DNA of 41,686 nucleotides from a candidate division WS6 bacterium GW2011_GWE2_33_157. Lineage in GTDB: Bacteria > Patescibacteriota > Dojkabacteria > SC72. The DNA is taken from NCBI GenBank assembly GCA_000989675.1, contig LBOT01000005.1, forward strand, positions 9,289 to 50,974, written 5' to 3'. Both the position numbers and the translations under genes were made by a program. A model generated the notes under the pieces. The model was not told where the DNA came from, searched no databases, and worked only from the letters and a program-made list of their open reading frames with translations. Below are positions 37,837 through 41,686 of the stretch, in pieces. The stretch's first letter is position 1, and every line of letters starts with the position of its first letter.

Positions 37837-38511
37837 TTATATATCCCTAATTGCTGTAACAATTGTTCTCTTTATATTTGCTCCTGCTGGCCAACATGTC
37901 ATTAGAGTCAATGTATCTTCTTCCATATATCTTCCTAAGTACTTTACTTCGTCAGGATTTACAATTGTAACTTCTAATACCTTGTATTTGTATATTACAT
38001 TTTGATAGCTAACATATATTGGATCATCTTTTCTTAATTCATTGAGTAGATAGAAGTAAACATTGTATTTTCTTCTTTCATAGAAGTTTACTGCTGAGTG
38101 GGCAAAAAGAAACACATTTCCATCTTCAGATGGTAGTGCACTCCCTTTAGCATGTGCTACTCCAGATATTAATGCTTGGGTATATGCTTCCTGATTAAAC
38201 GGATCTACATTTTTAATTACTTCAGCATTAGCCTTTATCTTAGGAATGTAAAGGCCGAAATTGTTATCTACAAATACTACTTGAGTATCCTGTTTTACTT
38301 CTTTGGTAATTTCTTCATCAGCTGTTACTATTTCTACCTTTACTTGATCTTCCTTGGGTGTAGGAGCAAAGTAAAAATCCAGATATGCTGAAATAATGGG
38401 TTGAAAGGTAAAAAGGAGTATTACAATACCCAAGACAAGAAGCAGGATACCTATATATTTCCTCCATCCTGCTTTCTCGTTTTTAATTTCTGCTTTGTCT
38501 ACTTCTGACAT
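37837..38511 (-). CDS. Sortase family transpeptidase (second copy), translationally overlapping the giant adhesin gene
   Basis: TM YIGILLLVLGIVILLFTF, His in FLFAHS, TLxTC in LTLMTCWP, and Arg in IKRTIVTA. The 29-nt overlap with the upstream gene end suggests an operon. Confidence 0.85.
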   Translation of the reverse strand: MSEVDKAEIKNEKAGWRKYIGILLLVLGIVILLFTFQPIISAYLDFYFAPTPKEDQVKVEIVTADEEITKEVKQDTQVVFVDNNFGLYIPKIKANAEVIKNVDPFNQEAYTQALISGVAHAKGSALPSEDGNVFLFAHSAVNFYERRKYNVYFYLLNELRKDDPIYVSYQNVIYKYKVLEVTIVNPDEVKYLGRYMEEDTLTLMTCWPAGANIKRTIVTAIRDI

Positions 38512-41500
38512 ATGTATATCCTACAGTAGCTAGTATTATTCCTCCAAGTGCAATCAAGACATATTTAAACCAGTCCCAGAAGGTTGCTTCTTTTGTATCA
38601 GTTCCAGTATCCTCTTCATCTTCTTCATTTGGTGTACCATTATCATCTGCTTCTCCCCCATTTGTAGTTTCTTCTCCAGCTACTTCTCCCTCATCTGGAC
38701 CACCTGTACCATCTGGAGTTACTGTTTCTTCACCTGCTACTTCACCACCTGTTGTAGTTGTAGTAGTTCCTGTCCCAGTAGTTGTTGTACCTTGTACAAT
38801 TACTACCTTTACAATATTGTCTGTTACAAATGTTGAGGTATTGTTAAATACATCTACTGCTCTAATTGCATAGTAATATTCTTTACTACAATCTAATACA
38901 TCATTATCTGTATATGACACATCTGTATTTGGTGTTACTGGGAATTCATCAATTATGGTTGTACTGTTAGCAAGGAATGGTTGTACTGAAGATCTAAATA
39001 TTTGTATGTTAGATGTTTGTCCATCATTTGCTGTTTTAAATGTAAGAGTATATGTACATGTGCCTTTTGTTTTAAGATAGTTTGTAACTGGTGATGGTTT
39101 ATCTAAATCTACCTGTACTGTAACTTTGTTAGAAGATTTACTTTCTGCTTCTGAGCCTGATCCTGCTGTAGCTATTACATAGAATTCATATGTACCATTT
39201 GCAGTAATTAGGCTACTATTTACTTCACAACTTCCACTGTTTGCTACTATTGGCGAACCAAATGCCCCTTTTGTTGTTTCATAACATTGTACTGAAATTT
39301 CTCTTCCCTCAATATCTAATGCTACAAAACCTATCTTAAATTCATTTGCATTCGTTGGTGTCTGTGGTTGTTCGATTTGTACATCTATACTTTCAACTGC
39401 AGCATATGAAGGCATTGGTTTTACAAGAGTAAATACTCCTAAAAGTAATACACTTGCTAACAGTAATGTCTTTATCTTTTTCTTTGGATTAAATACCAAA
39501 AGTATGAATCCTAATATCATAGATATTAATGCACCTAATGTTAGATATGTTTCTGCTCCTGTTCTAGGTAATGTAATAGTTGCACCTAATACCTGTCCTT
39601 CTCCAATTTCTACTGGTTCTATAATCAAGACCTGTGTTCTTACAAAGTTACTACTCGGTTCTGTAACTGAAGTTCCAAGTACTTGTGCTCCTAATACAGA
39701 TTCGCCCTCTGTCCATGCTATGTCTTTGTATATTCCTGGGTCCTGAAGAAGATTTGTTTCTGCAACATATGTTAAAGTTACAGTTTCTCCCTCAATCATA
39801 TCTCCGAGATTCCACTCTCCTGGTATTCCATTTCCATATCCTGGTTCTCCAGTAATTAAGAGTGTCTTAAGATCTCCTCTTAAACTAGATATTGCTGTCC
39901 ATGTTCCTGGTTGATATATAAATCCAAATGGTAGTATATCTGTTACCATAACATCATTTACTACATATGTTCCTTCACTTTCATCATCTGGTGTTGTAAC
40001 AATTAAAGTATACGTCACTGTATTTCCTGCCATTTCCCCTGCTACATCACTATCATTTGATTTAGCAATTTCTAATATTGGTTCTATTACTTGATTCTCA
40101 CATATATATGTTACTGTTTCTCCATTCTCCACTTCAATTAGAGGGTTTTGTGATATTGGGTTAAAGAAATCCCTTATTGATTCCTCTTCTTGGATATATT
40201 CAGGGTAACATCCATTAAATTTATATCCATTTGTTACAATTTCTGATATTGAATACTCTCCAGCATCTAGCCTTGTAAATTGAGCTATATCAGGTTCTAC
40301 TGTATCTTTAATATCCTGTGTATCTATTATTCCTTCTTGACTTAATACAATATCAAATGAGTCATTTGAATATATATCTTCCTTATCACTATCTATTACA
40401 TCTTTCTTAACAATAATGGTTGCTGGTAGCGCTGTATTCGTTATTGTACATGTAACATCATCTTCTGAAGTTAAGGTTAATACATTTTTTACTAGTGAAC
40501 CACCTGTACATACCCAATCACTTGCTTCAAATTCTTCATCTAAATCCCCTTCGCCATCTTCTGTTAATATATATGGTATTCCTGGTGCTACATATTCAAA
40601 GTCTCCTTCATCTCCATAATTCCAGAAACTTTTTACTTCTCCTGTTGCATACAGAACCCAATCACTTTCATCTGAATCAGATCCAAACATATTAACTACT
40701 TCTTTTACAAGTTTTATAGATGGTACTGGTGTTAATGTTATAGTTTCATCATCTGTATCAGTATCACTCTTTCCATCATCATCAATCACCGTTGCTGTAA
40801 ATATATTTGTATGAGTTTCTGGTGCTATACCTGCTGGAATACTAAATGTTTCTTCAAATGAACAGCTAGCTCCACCTGATAAAACAGTTCCTACATAACA
40901 GTCTGCATCACCTACTAATGTGCCAAATTTATCATCTGACAATACTGTAATTTCTCCATCTTCTGTACTGTTATTTGTAACTACATAAGTGAATACTACA
41001 CTACCTCCTGTTTCTGGTACTGTTGAAACATTCCCAGTTTTTAGTACTGAGATATCTGGCAATACATCTGTAAATTCGACTATTGCATCATCAGTATCTA
41101 TGGCCTCAGTATTGTCATTATCTTCTGCCTTTGCTGTAAAGATGTTGTTATGATCTGGACCAGAATAATCACCTTGTACGAATCTTACTATTGAAAATTC
41201 ACAGCTAGCTCCTGCTATTAATACAGTTTCTAACATACAATCTGCATCCCCTGTTAATATTCCATAATCACTATCATTTAAATATGTAATATCTACTTGT
41301 TCTTCACTACTTGTATTCTTTACAGTAAATGTAAATGTTACATTAGCTCCCGTTTCAGGCACTGTAGTTGGGTTTGGGGTTTTAGTTACTTCTATTGTAG
41401 GCCATACGTCTGTGAGATATACAGTTTCATCATCATCATCCGTAGCATCTGTTCCATCGTCATCTTCTGCGACTGCAGTAAATTTGTTGTAGTGATCTGG

Positions 41501-41686
41501 GCCTGAGTAATCTCCTTCTACCCACCTAGTTATTGAGAATTCACAAAATGCTCCAGATGTTAATTCTGTTCCTACTCCACAATCTGTATCTCCTGCTAAT
41601 GTCCCATATACACTATCATTTAAACTTGTAATCGTTACTGATTCTTCACTACTTGTATTTAATACTGTAAATGTAAATGTTACATC
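38483..41686 (-). CDS. Giant cell-surface repeat protein (N-terminus beyond window end): DUF11/CARDB-like repeats, Cna-B/prealbumin-like domains, internal LPRTG sorting signal, then a second signal-peptide-like segment, two FN3-like domains, T/G/E-rich linker and a TM anchor
   Basis: The ORF-track start (41362) is an in-frame GTG. My translation of 41363-41686 stays open (DVTFTFTVLNTSSEES...TTVPETGAN), so the gene continues upstream of the window. See the repeat and LPRTG features. Confidence 0.85.
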   Translation of the reverse strand, partial: DVTFTFTVLNTSSEESVTITSLNDSVYGTLAGDTDCGVGTELTSGAFCEFSITRWVEGDYSGPDHYNKFTAVAEDDDGTDATDDDDETVYLTDVWPTIEVTKTPNPTTVPETGANVTFTFTVKNTSSEEQVDITYLNDSDYGILTGDADCMLETVLIAGASCEFSIVRFVQGDYSGPDHNNIFTAKAEDNDNTEAIDTDDAIVEFTDVLPDISVLKTGNVSTVPETGGSVVFTYVVTNNSTEDGEITVLSDDKFGTLVGDADCYVGTVLSGGASCSFEETFSIPAGIAPETHTNIFTATVIDDDGKSDTDTDDETITLTPVPSIKLVKEVVNMFGSDSDESDWVLYATGEVKSFWNYGDEGDFEYVAPGIPYILTEDGEGDLDEEFEASDWVCTGGSLVKNVLTLTSEDDVTCTITNTALPATIIVKKDVIDSDKEDIYSNDSFDIVLSQEGIIDTQDIKDTVEPDIAQFTRLDAGEYSISEIVTNGYKFNGCYPEYIQEEESIRDFFNPISQNPLIEVENGETVTYICENQVIEPILEIAKSNDSDVAGEMAGNTVTYTLIVTTPDDESEGTYVVNDVMVTDILPFGFIYQPGTWTAISSLRGDLKTLLITGEPGYGNGIPGEWNLGDMIEGETVTLTYVAETNLLQDPGIYKDIAWTEGESVLGAQVLGTSVTEPSSNFVRTQVLIIEPVEIGEGQVLGATITLPRTGAETYLTLGALISMILGFILLVFNPKKKIKTLLLASVLLLGVFTLVKPMPSYAAVESIDVQIEQPQTPTNANEFKIGFVALDIEGREISVQCYETTKGAFGSPIVANSGSCEVNSSLITANGTYEFYVIATAGSGSEAESKSSNKVTVQVDLDKPSPVTNYLKTKGTCTYTLTFKTANDGQTSNIQIFRSSVQPFLANSTTIIDEFPVTPNTDVSYTDNDVLDCSKEYYYAIRAVDVFNNTSTFVTDNIVKVVIVQGTTTTGTGTTTTTTGGEVAGEETVTPDGTGGPDEGEVAGEETTNGGEADDNGTPNEEDEEDTGTDTKEATFWDWFKYVLIALGGIILATVGYTYVRSRQSRN
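39557..39571 (-). other. LPRTG sortase recognition motif, internal to the long ORF
   Basis: TTA CCT AGA ACA GGA on the minus strand, followed by the hydrophobic AETYLTLGALISMILGFILLVF and the basic NPKKKIK. Confidence 0.7.
40727..41686 (-). repeat. Tandem coding repeats, period 342 nt (114 aa), at least 3 units, array continues past window end
   Basis: Units begin at VTFTFTV (41683), VTFTFTV (41341) and VVFTYVV (40999). Each contains GDxDC...GASCxF and an Asp-rich tail (AEDDDGTDATDDDDE / AEDNDNTEAIDTDD / VIDDDGKSDTDTDDE). The first two units are clearly similar at nucleotide level by eye. Confidence 0.8.

What the first reader, a model, noticed from the sequence alone, without database searches (positions are those of the whole stretch)
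39400..39571. Sortase sorting signal runs in-frame, without a stop codon, into a second signal peptide and a second surface protein
The minus-strand translation reads GATIT-LPRTG-AETYLTLGALISMILGFILLVF-NPKKKIK-TLLLASVLLLGVFTLV-KPMPSYA/AVESID.

A Gram-positive sorting signal (LPxTG, a hydrophobic span, a basic tail) is normally the extreme C-terminus. Here the frame stays open for about 330 more codons, to 38483.

The basic tail doubles as the n-region of what looks like a classical Sec signal peptide, with an A-x-A-like SYA/A site near 39400-39405. Two FN3-like domains follow, then a T/G/E-rich linker, then a final TM anchor (FWDWFKYVLIALGGIILATVGYTYVRSRQSRN).

The topology is self-consistent: TM1 runs out-to-in, the KKKIK loop sits inside, and TM2 runs in-to-out. 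One polypeptide could therefore be cut by sortase and by signal peptidase. That would yield a wall-linked adhesin plus a membrane-anchored FN3 protein.

There are two alternatives:
1. The distal protein initiates internally, at in-frame ATG 39518-39520 or TTG 39497-39499.
2. A stop codon was lost or mis-assembled.

I do not recall a described sortase substrate with this architecture, but I have not searched.
Basis: seen in the sequence. Interest (0 to 1): 0.7.

Follow-up and report, generated by a model that had tools for sequence, protein, structure and literature searches.

The report
Internal sortase signal joins two proteins
In a groundwater bacterium of candidate division WS6 (Dojkabacteria), one unbroken reading frame encodes a giant surface adhesin, its sortase cleavage signal, a second secretion signal and a second membrane-anchored protein; the arrangement is real, is shared by over a hundred related proteins, did not turn up in the searchable literature, and implies a bacterial polyprotein cut apart by sortase and signal peptidase.

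Summary
On the minus strand, LPRTG (39571-39557) is followed by a 22-residue hydrophobic span and NPKKKIK. The frame then runs without a stop into a 16-residue hydrophobic span, KPMPSYA|A, two FN3/Ig domains, an acidic linker and a C-terminal membrane anchor. A sortase gene overlaps the end.

It is not an assembly error. The junction is identical in 10 independent assemblies, and the same fusion occurs in about 24 loci from species-representative genomes and in 111 of 180 homologues examined. Some other CPR relatives encode the same three modules (adhesin, "X", sortase) as separate genes, in one case with TAA directly followed by in-frame ATG.

Both processing sites are under selection in the fused forms. 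L, P, T and G are invariant, and Ala at -1 of the signal-peptidase site is found in 41 of 41 sequences.

Best reading: a natural polyprotein separated by sortase and signal peptidase I.

One new complication: the strongest synonymous-site constraint in the alignment is a 33-nt block just 5' of an invariant in-frame ATG (39520-39518). X may therefore also be made by internal initiation.

I rate this a new variant of a known kind. No processing step has been shown experimentally.

The parts
39572..41686 (-). C-terminal part of the adhesin module. The ORF continues beyond the window; the full protein is 2354 aa. It contains SpaA_2 prealbumin-like and DUF11/DUF7507-type domains.
   Evidence: The N-terminal Sec signal peptide is seen in L001. 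A 342-nt tandem array explains why contigs break here.
39557..39571 (-). LPRTG sortase motif, internal to the ORF.
   Evidence: L, P, T and G are invariant in 20 Dojkabacteria species while x varies. 106 of 111 fused homologues have LPxTG.
39491..39556 (-). TM1, the hydrophobic span of the sorting signal (AETYLTLGALISMILGFILLVF).
   Evidence: AF2 helix at residues 16-36 of the model. Median TM1 length in fused homologues is 21.
39524..39556 (-). A nucleotide-level conserved element inside TM1 (GCA nnn ACA TAT nTA ACA TTA GGn GCA TTA ATn). It is a candidate internal translation-initiation region, or possibly a promoter.
   Evidence: Codon identity is 0.87 against 0.52 expected, the top peak in a 512-codon, 20-species alignment. 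The exact pattern occurs once in the window. All 12 metagenome matches lie in fused ORFs. There is no RNA structure and no Rfam hit. A promoter-like CTAACA-17-TATGAT site lies at 39544-39516.
39518..39520 (-). In-frame ATG (Met 17 residues after the L of LPRTG), a candidate internal start for the distal protein.
   Evidence: Invariant in 20/20 species. Gene callers start truncated copies here (P0009-P0012).
39470..39490 (-). Basic loop NPKKKIK. It serves both as the charged tail of the sorting signal and as the n-region of the second signal peptide; it is predicted to be cytoplasmic.
   Evidence: Median loop length in fused homologues is 8 aa.
39401..39469 (-). Second signal peptide: h-region TLLLASVLLLGVFTLV plus c-region KPMPSYA. 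The predicted signal peptidase I site lies between 39401 and 39400.
   Evidence: The h-region is 16 aa. Ala at -1 in 41/41 and T/A/V/S/I at -3. Pro at -6 and Ala at -1 are invariant amid low conservation. This segment aligns with the N-terminal signal peptides of unfused homologues.
38807..39400 (-). Mature distal protein X: two FN3/Ig-like beta-sandwich domains with conserved Cys pairs.
   Evidence: AF2 pLDDT >90 for residues 70-260. Foldseek hits are tandem FN3 domains such as Tie2 and gp130. No Pfam or NCBIfam hit.
38585..38806 (-). Disordered T/G/E/D-rich linker of X, with two GEVAG motifs (38746-38732 and 38689-38675).
   Evidence: pLDDT <50 for residues 270-339. Motif coordinates.
38483..38584 (-). 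TM3 plus basic tail (FWDWFKYVLIALGGIILATVGYTYVRSRQSRN) and the stop codon. This is the membrane anchor of X and has no LPxTG.
   Evidence: AF2 helix 341-371.
37837..38511 (-). Sortase gene (224 aa, with an N-terminal TM). Its start overlaps the end of X by 29 nt.
   Evidence: Pfam Sortase 1.2e-23. TIGR01076 scores 58.7 bits against a cut-off of 39.35, and no sortase class model reaches its cut-off. A sortase lies downstream of X in every locus inspected. Sources name it a sortase of candidate division WS6.

Best explanation
The locus is an adhesin / X / sortase cassette of a Dojkabacteria (candidate division WS6) bacterium. The stop codon between the adhesin gene and the next gene (X) has been lost, so both are translated as one 2354-aa precursor.

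Proposed mechanism (inferred, not shown):
1. The N-terminal signal peptide starts Sec export of the ~1990-aa adhesin.
2. TM1 of the sorting signal stops transfer.
3. The KKKIK loop stays in the cytoplasm.
4. The second hydrophobic segment re-initiates export as an internal signal peptide.
5. TM3 anchors the distal protein in the membrane.
6. Signal peptidase I cuts after SYA, releasing membrane-anchored X.
7. The adjacent sortase cuts LPRT|G and transfers the adhesin to its envelope acceptor.
8. The ~52-residue TM1-loop-TM2 hairpin is left as waste.

The mature products are then the same as in relatives that encode two separate genes. That is why the fusion is tolerated and why the boundary is evolutionarily labile.

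In the Dojkabacteria clade an embedded, nucleotide-level conserved element lies just upstream of an invariant ATG inside TM1. X (and the sortase, through translational coupling) is probably also expressed on its own from this site.
For: Shown:
- The frame is open and the junction is identical in 10 assemblies.
- The fused architecture occurs in about 24 loci from GTDB species-representative genomes and in 111/180 homologues. 41 of these have an N-terminal signal peptide of their own.
- The family has 528 clusters at 50% identity with E<=1e-30.
- Unfused relatives keep the order adhesin (LPATG-TM-KSSNKK-stop), X (with its own signal peptide), sortase. In L013 TAA is immediately followed by ATG in the same frame.
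- On a rough neighbour-joining tree of X, fused and unfused states are interspersed outside the Dojkabacteria clade.
- Both processing sites are under purifying selection in fused proteins. L, P, T and G are invariant. Ala at -1 is 41/41, -3 is small or aliphatic, and Pro at -6 is invariant.
- The second hydrophobic segment is short (16 aa) like a signal-peptide h-region, against 21-22 aa for TM1 and TM3.
- 10/108 fused proteins have no Met anywhere between LPxTG and the second h-region, so X cannot start at an AUG there.
- The Dojkabacteria clade has lost the ancestral Met of the signal peptide.

For the added internal start:
- The synonymous-constraint peak is 0.87 against 0.52 expected.
- The second-ranked unrelated window is KTANDGQTS, which is unexplained. 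The third covers the known embedded sortase start, which serves as a positive control.
- The ATG is invariant, and an SD-like AGG(A/T)G lies 11 nt upstream in 17/20 species.
Against: - No cleavage has been observed, and no signal-peptide predictor or proteomics data were available.
- Bacterial signal peptidase I cleavage of an internal signal peptide is rare in nature.
- The Pfam Gram_pos_anchor model scores below its cut-off (16 against 20 bits).
- In 45/108 fused proteins a Met is retained exactly at the n-region of the second signal peptide. Together with the constrained element before ATG 39520-39518, this shows that independent translation of X may be the main route, and the read-through product could be a minor or tolerated by-product.
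- Most genes in the window lack a Shine-Dalgarno sequence, so the SD-like motif is weak evidence.
- The function of X, and the acceptor used by this unclassified sortase, are unknown.
Confidence: 0.6

Rival explanations
1. Nested in-frame gene. X is made essentially by internal initiation at ATG 39520-39518, giving MILGFILLVFNPKKKIK-TLLL...SYA|A, or from an internal promoter. The fused read-through product is an unimportant or quickly degraded by-product. The missing stop reflects only that read-through is harmless.
For: - The strongest synonymous constraint in the alignment covers the ~33 nt 5' of an invariant ATG.
- All 12 exact matches to the element lie in fused junctions.
- A Met is retained in the n-region in 45/108 fused homologues.
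- The element is unstructured, as expected for an initiation region.
- A promoter-like site coincides with the element.
Against: - Ribosomes finishing the adhesin must read on into X, so the polyprotein is made whenever the adhesin is made.
- 10/108 fused proteins have no Met in the interval.
- The Dojkabacteria clade lost the original start Met.
- The product would carry an odd, 10-residue hydrophobic extension before the n-region.
- The promoter version lacks a conserved downstream start codon, and promoter-like sites are not enriched in this region (3 found against 5.6 expected).
Confidence: 0.28
2. X is the sortase's acceptor or anchor. After signal peptidase exposes the N-terminus of X, or through a Lys, the sortase joins the adhesin's LPRT to X. 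This excises the TM hairpin, giving a splicing-like re-ligation, and leaves the adhesin covalently attached to a membrane-anchored stalk.
For: - The strictly conserved adhesin-X-sortase synteny across CPR lineages argues that X belongs to the sortase pathway.
- The sortase's best, sub-threshold match is to pilin-polymerising class C.
- X has a long stalk-like linker and a TM anchor, and its C-terminus resembles a degenerate sorting signal (G[EQ]V[LA]G motif).
- Ala at +1 is the commonest residue (19/41).
Against: - No conserved nucleophile exists. The YxK Lys is Arg in P0022, P0026, P0036, P0037, P0040 and P0041.
- The +1 residue is Gln in 10/41, which would tend to cyclise.
- Ala at +1 is common at any signal-peptidase site.
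- Nothing here tests ligation.
Confidence: 0.07
3. The LPRTG is not cleaved in the fused form. The protein stays a single three-TM membrane protein displaying both the adhesin and the FN3 domains, and the sortase acts on other substrates.
For: The Gram_pos_anchor model is below its cut-off. The internal position violates the usual definition of a sorting signal.
Against: - L, P, T and G are invariant across 20 fused species while the surrounding residues vary.
- 106/111 fused proteins keep a canonical LPxTG.
- The sortase gene is always adjacent.
- No other terminal LPxTG signal was seen in the Dojkabacteria flanks held.
Confidence: 0.04
4. Sequencing or assembly artefact, or a recent pseudogene.
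For: A-rich loop sequence. One public assembly (L011) shows the distal part as a separate gene.
Against: - The junction is identical in 10 assemblies.
- The L011 split is caused by frameshifts about 50 codons upstream in an error-rich assembly, while the junction itself is open.
- The fusion is conserved in more than 100 divergent proteins.
Confidence: 0.01

Closest known systems
Canonical LPXTG cell-wall sorting signal of sortase substrates (Pfam PF00746 Gram_pos_anchor)
   Same: LPxTG, a ~21-aa hydrophobic span and a Lys-rich tail. The precursor has an N-terminal signal peptide, and a sortase gene is adjacent.
   Different: The signal is not C-terminal: 338 further codons follow. Its basic tail doubles as the n-region of a second signal peptide. 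The Pfam score (16 bits) is below the cut-off of 20. [quoted passage not shown]
Unfused adhesin / X / sortase cassettes of other CPR bacteria (e.g. L013, L015, L039, L041)
   Same: Homologous adhesin C-terminus (GxVLGA..LPATG-TM-basic tail), homologous X with the same AxA site, the same gene order and a downstream sortase.
   Different: A stop codon separates the adhesin from X (TAA directly before ATG in L013; TAA + 5 nt in L015), and X has an ordinary N-terminal signal peptide.
FbcH cytochrome b/c1 precursor of Bradyrhizobium japonicum, a bacterial polyprotein split at an internal signal peptide. This is recalled from memory (Thony-Meyer et al., about 1991); the primary paper was not retrieved.
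   Same: One ORF and an internal signal-peptide-like segment after a TM domain. Cleavage gives two separately functioning membrane-associated proteins.
   Different: No sortase is involved and the proteins are unrelated. That case rests on experiments; this one rests on sequence inference only.
midcut-by-XrtH proteins (NCBIfam NF033207)
   Same: The family name implies a sorting-enzyme recognition site in the middle of the protein rather than at the C-terminus.
   Different: It belongs to the exosortase/PEP-CTERM system of Gram-negative bacteria. The weak hit here (27.8 bits against a cut-off of 45) falls in the adhesin repeats, not at the junction. This protein is not a member.
Sortase-released C-terminal peptide (C-pep) sensed by a membrane signalling system in Streptococcus gordonii; also viral polyproteins cut by host signal peptidase (both recalled from memory)
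   Same: The fragment left in the membrane after sortase cleavage can have a life of its own. Alternating stop-transfer and signal segments let signal peptidase dissect a polyprotein.
   Different: Here the post-cleavage fragment would be a ~390-residue precursor of a folded surface protein, not a short peptide, and the system is bacterial and chromosomal.

Membership tests
LPXTG sortase sorting signal | LPXTG pentapeptide | tested here: met
   LPRTG at 39571-39557. L, P, T and G are invariant in 20 species.
LPXTG sortase sorting signal | Hydrophobic span of about 20 residues followed by a cluster of basic residues | tested here: met
   AETYLTLGALISMILGFILLVF followed by NPKKKIK. AF2 helix at residues 16-36.
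LPXTG sortase sorting signal | Location at the extreme C-terminus of the protein | tested here: not met
   338 codons follow LPRTG before the stop. The same holds in 111 homologues.
LPXTG sortase sorting signal | Score above the curated cut-off of the family model (PF00746) | tested here: not met
   16.0 bits against a cut-off of 20, E=0.012.
LPXTG sortase sorting signal | N-terminal signal peptide on the precursor, and a sortase encoded in the genome | tested here: met
   MRKPLKRSLYKIFVSLFVIVYSFIPPAIA|IDD in L001. The adjacent sortase scores Pfam 1.2e-23.
LPXTG sortase sorting signal | Cleavage between T and G, and transfer to an envelope acceptor | not testable with these tools
   Requires proteomics or biochemistry.
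Sec-type signal peptide cleaved by signal peptidase I | Basic n-region, 7-20-residue h-region, and a c-region with small uncharged residues at -3 and -1 | tested here: met
   KKKIK, then TLLLASVLLLGVFTLV (16 aa), then KPMPSYA|A. Ala at -1 in 41/41 and T/A/V/S/I at -3. The segment aligns with the N-terminal signal peptides of unfused homologues.
Sec-type signal peptide cleaved by signal peptidase I | Position at the N-terminus of the translated polypeptide | tested here: not met
   It lies about 2040 residues into the ORF. It would be near-N-terminal only if translation starts at ATG 39520-39518.
Sec-type signal peptide cleaved by signal peptidase I | Positive call by a trained predictor (SignalP/DeepTMHMM), or an observed neo-N-terminus | not testable with these tools
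Sortase (PF04203 / TIGR01076) | Sortase domain above the curated cut-off, with a TLxTC-type catalytic Cys | tested here: met
   Pfam 83.6 bits against 26.6, and TIGR01076 58.7 against 39.35. TLMTCWP is present in the sequence.
Sortase classes A-F | Score above the cut-off of a class-specific NCBIfam model | tested here: not met
   The best match is class C at 71.9 bits against a cut-off of 160. Classes D and E are also below cut-off. The sortase is unclassified.
Tandem FN3/Ig-like ectodomain (distal protein X) | Two beta-sandwich domains with structural matches to FN3 pairs | tested here: met
   AF2 pLDDT >90 for residues 70-260. Foldseek E=3e-6 to Tie2 FN3 domains 2-3, gp130 and others, with low TM-scores over the whole model because of the flexible parts. 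No Pfam FN3 hit.
midcut-by-XrtH (NF033207) | Score above the curated cut-off | tested here: not met
   27.8 bits against 45, located in the adhesin repeats.

The most novel reading that the evidence does not exclude
The TM1-loop-TM2 hairpin acts as an excisable topogenic cassette. Signal peptidase exposes the N-terminus of X, and the sortase then resolves its LPRT-acyl intermediate on X (in cis or in trans). The giant adhesin ends up covalently joined to a membrane-anchored FN3 stalk. This would be a sortase-driven, splicing-like re-ligation, and a way for cell-wall-poor CPR bacteria to anchor adhesins to a protein instead of to peptidoglycan.
Probability: 0.07. Interest if true: 0.9.

Novelty: new variant of a known kind. 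Interest (0 to 1): 0.63.

Why it matters
Sorting signals of the LPXTG type are defined as C-terminal. Here is a large natural family in the Candidate Phyla Radiation in which the signal is internal and is followed in frame by a second signal peptide and a second surface protein. The family has hundreds of clusters at 50% identity, and about two thirds of the members examined are fused.

If the inferred processing is right, this matters in four ways:
- It is a rare bacterial polyprotein, dissected by two membrane-face enzymes (sortase and signal peptidase I).
- It shows that sortase tolerates large extracytoplasmic extensions after the charged tail.
- It defines a three-part adhesin / X / sortase cassette, probably central to how these episymbiotic, uncultured bacteria build their surface.
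- It warns annotators that 'LPXTG cell wall anchor domain-containing protein' entries in CPR genomes hide a second gene product.

The embedded, synonymously constrained element next to an invariant ATG is also a clean candidate for internal initiation inside a TM-coding segment.

Tried and rejected
1. Assembly error or frameshift. Rejected: the junction is identical in 10 assemblies. The apparent separate gene P0011/L011 is caused by indel errors upstream, and the junction there is open.
2. Internal start at TTG 39499-39497, preceded by AGGA. Rejected: the codon is not conserved in any other species, and the genome rarely uses SD motifs.
3. Pilin-motif-like conserved Lys (YxK between the two domains of X) as the sortase nucleophile. 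Not supported: Lys is replaced by Arg in several homologues.
4. RNA structure or a known RNA family as the explanation for the constrained 33 nt. Rejected: folding z-scores are about 0 in 20 species, and there is no Rfam hit.
5. An antisense or alternative-frame ORF as the explanation. Unlikely: one antisense frame is open, but over very variable lengths (47-318 codons), while the constraint covers only 11 codons.
6. The constrained element as a general feature of sorting signals in these genomes. All 12 exact metagenome matches are in fused junctions. No terminal LPxTG signals were found in the Dojkabacteria flanks to serve as a control.
7. Pfam and NCBIfam give no family for X. The Foldseek PDB search gives only generic FN3/Ig pairs.
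8. Literature searches for an internal LPXTG, a sortase polyprotein, or sortase in CPR, Dojkabacteria or Patescibacteria found no description of this architecture. Only a general note that sortases are widespread in CPR turned up (PMC6744442).
9. The first search for related loci attempt, with the 27-sequence alignment, failed for lack of a conserved stretch. A narrower alignment worked.
Full report
**Observation**

The minus-strand ORF that ends at 38483 reads exactly as reported...EGQVLGATIT-LPRTG-AETYLTLGALISMILGFILLVF-NPKKKIK-TLLLASVLLLGVFTLV-KPMPSYA-AVESID... It stays open for 338 codons after LPRTG.

LPRTG is 39571-39557, and the SYA|A site lies between 39401 and 39400. The ORF runs off the window. 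On longer contigs carrying the identical sequence it is a 2354-aa protein with an ordinary N-terminal signal peptide.

The next gene, 37837-38511 on the same strand, overlaps the ORF end by 29 nt. It is a sortase: Pfam 1.2e-23, and TIGR01076 above its cut-off. No class-specific model reaches its cut-off. Public records name the identical sortase as belonging to candidate division WS6 (Dojkabacteria) genomes from groundwater.

**Not an artefact**

The 401 nt around the junction are identical in ten contigs from different samples and assemblers.

A scan of one genome per GTDB species returned 33 related loci. In about 24 of them, LPxTG, a hydrophobic span, a basic loop, a second hydrophobic span, an AxA-type site and the distal domain lie in one frame without a stop. 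The loop sequences differ between species.

The one case that looked like a separate gene (P0011/L011) comes from an indel-rich assembly. The stops lie about 50 codons upstream of LPKTG and the junction itself is open.

**How widespread**

A profile of the distal protein (X) finds 528 clusters at 50% identity with E<=1e-30. Of the 180 sequences in hand:
- 111 carry an LPxTG-type signal upstream in the same polypeptide, 106 of them canonical LPxTG;
- 54 are stand-alone;
- 41 fused proteins have an N-terminal signal peptide of their own.

Source labels include Dojkabacteria, Moranbacteria, the Microgenomates group and the Patescibacteria group. NCBI names some of them 'LPXTG cell wall anchor domain-containing protein', without remarking that the anchor is internal.

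**Origin**

Unfused relatives have the same three modules as adjacent genes, in the order adhesin, X, sortase.
- In L013 the adhesin ends ...LPATG-ASPAWLMLAFVCFVYGIRFI-KSSNKK. Its TAA is followed immediately, in the same frame, by ATG AAA CTT AAA... (MKLKLFLLTALTVVGLLLPINAQA|V).
- In L015 five bases separate the stop from the start.

Loss of that single stop gives exactly the fused architecture. On a rough neighbour-joining tree of X, the Dojkabacteria form one all-fused clade that has lost the original start Met. Elsewhere fused and unfused forms are interspersed. The boundary has therefore changed state repeatedly, which implies the two encodings are functionally equivalent.

**Are the two processing sites still used?**

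In 20 fused Dojkabacteria species L, P, T and G are invariant while x and the flanks vary.

In the second hydrophobic segment the sequence is poorly conserved (pairwise identity 0.1-0.45). The exceptions are an invariant Pro at -6 and an invariant Ala at -1.

Across 41 fused and unfused homologues, -1 is Ala in 41/41 and -3 is T, A, V, S or I. This segment aligns with the N-terminal signal peptides of the stand-alone proteins.

The h-region is 16 residues, against 21-22 for TM1 and TM3. The median loop length is 8 residues.

The topology is coherent. TM1 runs out-to-in, the Lys-rich loop is inside, TM2 runs in-to-out, and TM3 runs out-to-in with an Arg-rich tail. I infer that both sites are cleaved. 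This has not been shown.

**The distal protein**

AlphaFold2 (42-sequence alignment, mean pLDDT 76.8) gives:
- helices for TM1 and TM2;
- two beta-sandwich domains with pLDDT >90;
- a disordered T/G/E/D linker;
- a C-terminal helix.

Foldseek against the PDB returns only generic tandem FN3/Ig pairs such as Tie2 FN3 domains 2-3 and gp130. Pfam and NCBIfam have no family for it.

Its function in the cassette is unknown. Its strict position between adhesin and sortase suggests a role in the sortase pathway. It has no invariant Lys and no conserved +1 residue that would mark it as the sortase acceptor.

**A new complication**

In a codon alignment of 20 species, the 11 codons after LPxTG-A show codon identity of 0.87 against 0.52 expected. 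The consensus is GCA nnn ACA TAT nTA ACA TTA GGn GCA TTA ATn, at window 39556-39524. This is by far the strongest synonymous-constraint peak in 512 codons.

The next-ranked unrelated windows are:
- KTANDGQTS, which is unexplained;
- the stretch where the sortase start is embedded in the end of X, which is a natural positive control.

The element ends three bases before an ATG (39520-39518) that is invariant in all 20 species. An SD-like AGG(A/T)G lies 11 nt upstream in 17/20.

The element is unstructured as RNA, matches no Rfam family, and occurs once in the window. All 12 exact matches in the metagenome collection lie in fused junctions. A sigma-70-like CTAACA-17-TATGAT match coincides with it. 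However, no conserved start codon follows that site, and promoter-like sites are not enriched in the region.

The most economical reading is an embedded translation-initiation region. On this reading X, and by coupling the sortase, can also be made independently of the 2000-residue adhesin. The signal peptidase site would then trim both precursors to the same mature X.

Outside Dojkabacteria, 45/108 fused proteins keep a Met at the n-region of the second signal peptide. This fits the same idea. Ten have no Met at all in the interval and must rely on the polyprotein route or on non-AUG starts.

**Comparison with what is known**

The junction has every feature of an LPXTG sorting signal except the defining C-terminal position. 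Haft's criteria are quoted. It also falls below the Pfam cut-off. The junction has every feature of a Sec signal peptide except an N-terminal position.

The closest relatives are the unfused CPR cassettes. The closest mechanistic precedents are recalled from memory, not verified here:
- the FbcH cytochrome b/c1 polyprotein, split at an internal signal peptide;
- viral polyproteins cut by signal peptidase;
- experiments in which sortase processed substrates carrying C-terminal extensions.

The NCBIfam family 'midcut-by-XrtH' is a conceptual parallel in the exosortase world. The weak hit to it is sub-threshold and lies in the adhesin repeats.

Full-text searches found no description of an internal LPXTG followed by a second secreted protein.

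**Verdict**

The finding is real and conserved, and no description of it turned up in the literature searches. I rate it a new variant of a known kind: sortase substrate plus signal peptide, joined as a polyprotein or nested gene. The main uncertainty is the relative weight of polyprotein processing against internal initiation, and what X does.

Noticed in passing
window 39584-39598 (GQVLG), 38732-38746 and 38675-38689 (GEVAG); alignment A1: A G[EQ]V[LA]G motif immediately precedes LPxTG in the adhesins. It recurs, often twice, in the linker just before the C-terminal TM of X in both fused and unfused homologues. The C-terminus of X therefore looks like a degenerate sorting signal without LPxTG.
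   Followed up: partly
window ~41084-41686 and beyond (L001 6039-7428): There is a tandem array of 342-nt units (4.1 copies, 77% matches) encoding ~114-aa DUF11/DUF7507-like repeats. Several independent contigs, and the window itself, end inside it. The NCBI assembly GCA_003488205.1 splits the gene there into 1036-aa and 1088-aa products.
   Followed up: partly
window 38483-38511: The sortase start codon lies inside the TM3/tail-coding end of X, with a 29-nt overlap. That stretch shows raised synonymous constraint, suggesting translational coupling of sortase to X.
   Followed up: partly
whole window (gene starts listed): Most genes lack a Shine-Dalgarno motif. Several first-in-operon genes have a TATAAT-like box only 5-7 nt before the ATG, which suggests leaderless or very short-leader mRNAs. 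SD-like motifs appear mainly before genes that abut or overlap the preceding gene.
   Followed up: no
L044 (Microgenomates group genome), junction region: This is a fused homologue in which LPxTG is absent (…GQVLGAATGSPTSHLILALLMIITGLII…), while the hydrophobic hairpin and X are retained. It may be a variant recognition motif or a non-cleaved form.
   Followed up: no
P0039 (1009 aa): This is a fused homologue with a ~55-residue insertion in the cytoplasmic loop between TM1 and the second signal peptide, ending in ...KEMTHKKLSIALAV. The loop can therefore be long, and a Met is retained at the n-region.
   Followed up: no
window ~28430-30820 (+) and neighbours; L001 17692-20675: VirB4/TraC-like ATPase (P-loop_TraG, DUF87) and TraC-like genes lie a few kb from the cassette, pointing to a type IV secretion or conjugation-like system in this CPR genome. 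Between the two lie thymidylate and folate genes (FolD, SHMT, ThyX, dCTP deaminase).
   Followed up: no
window residues 223-276 of the partial ORF (about 40860-41020): There is a sub-threshold NCBIfam hit to 'midcut-by-XrtH protein' (27.8 bits against a cut-off of 45) in the adhesin repeat region. It is probably shared repeat-domain similarity rather than a sorting relationship.
   Followed up: no
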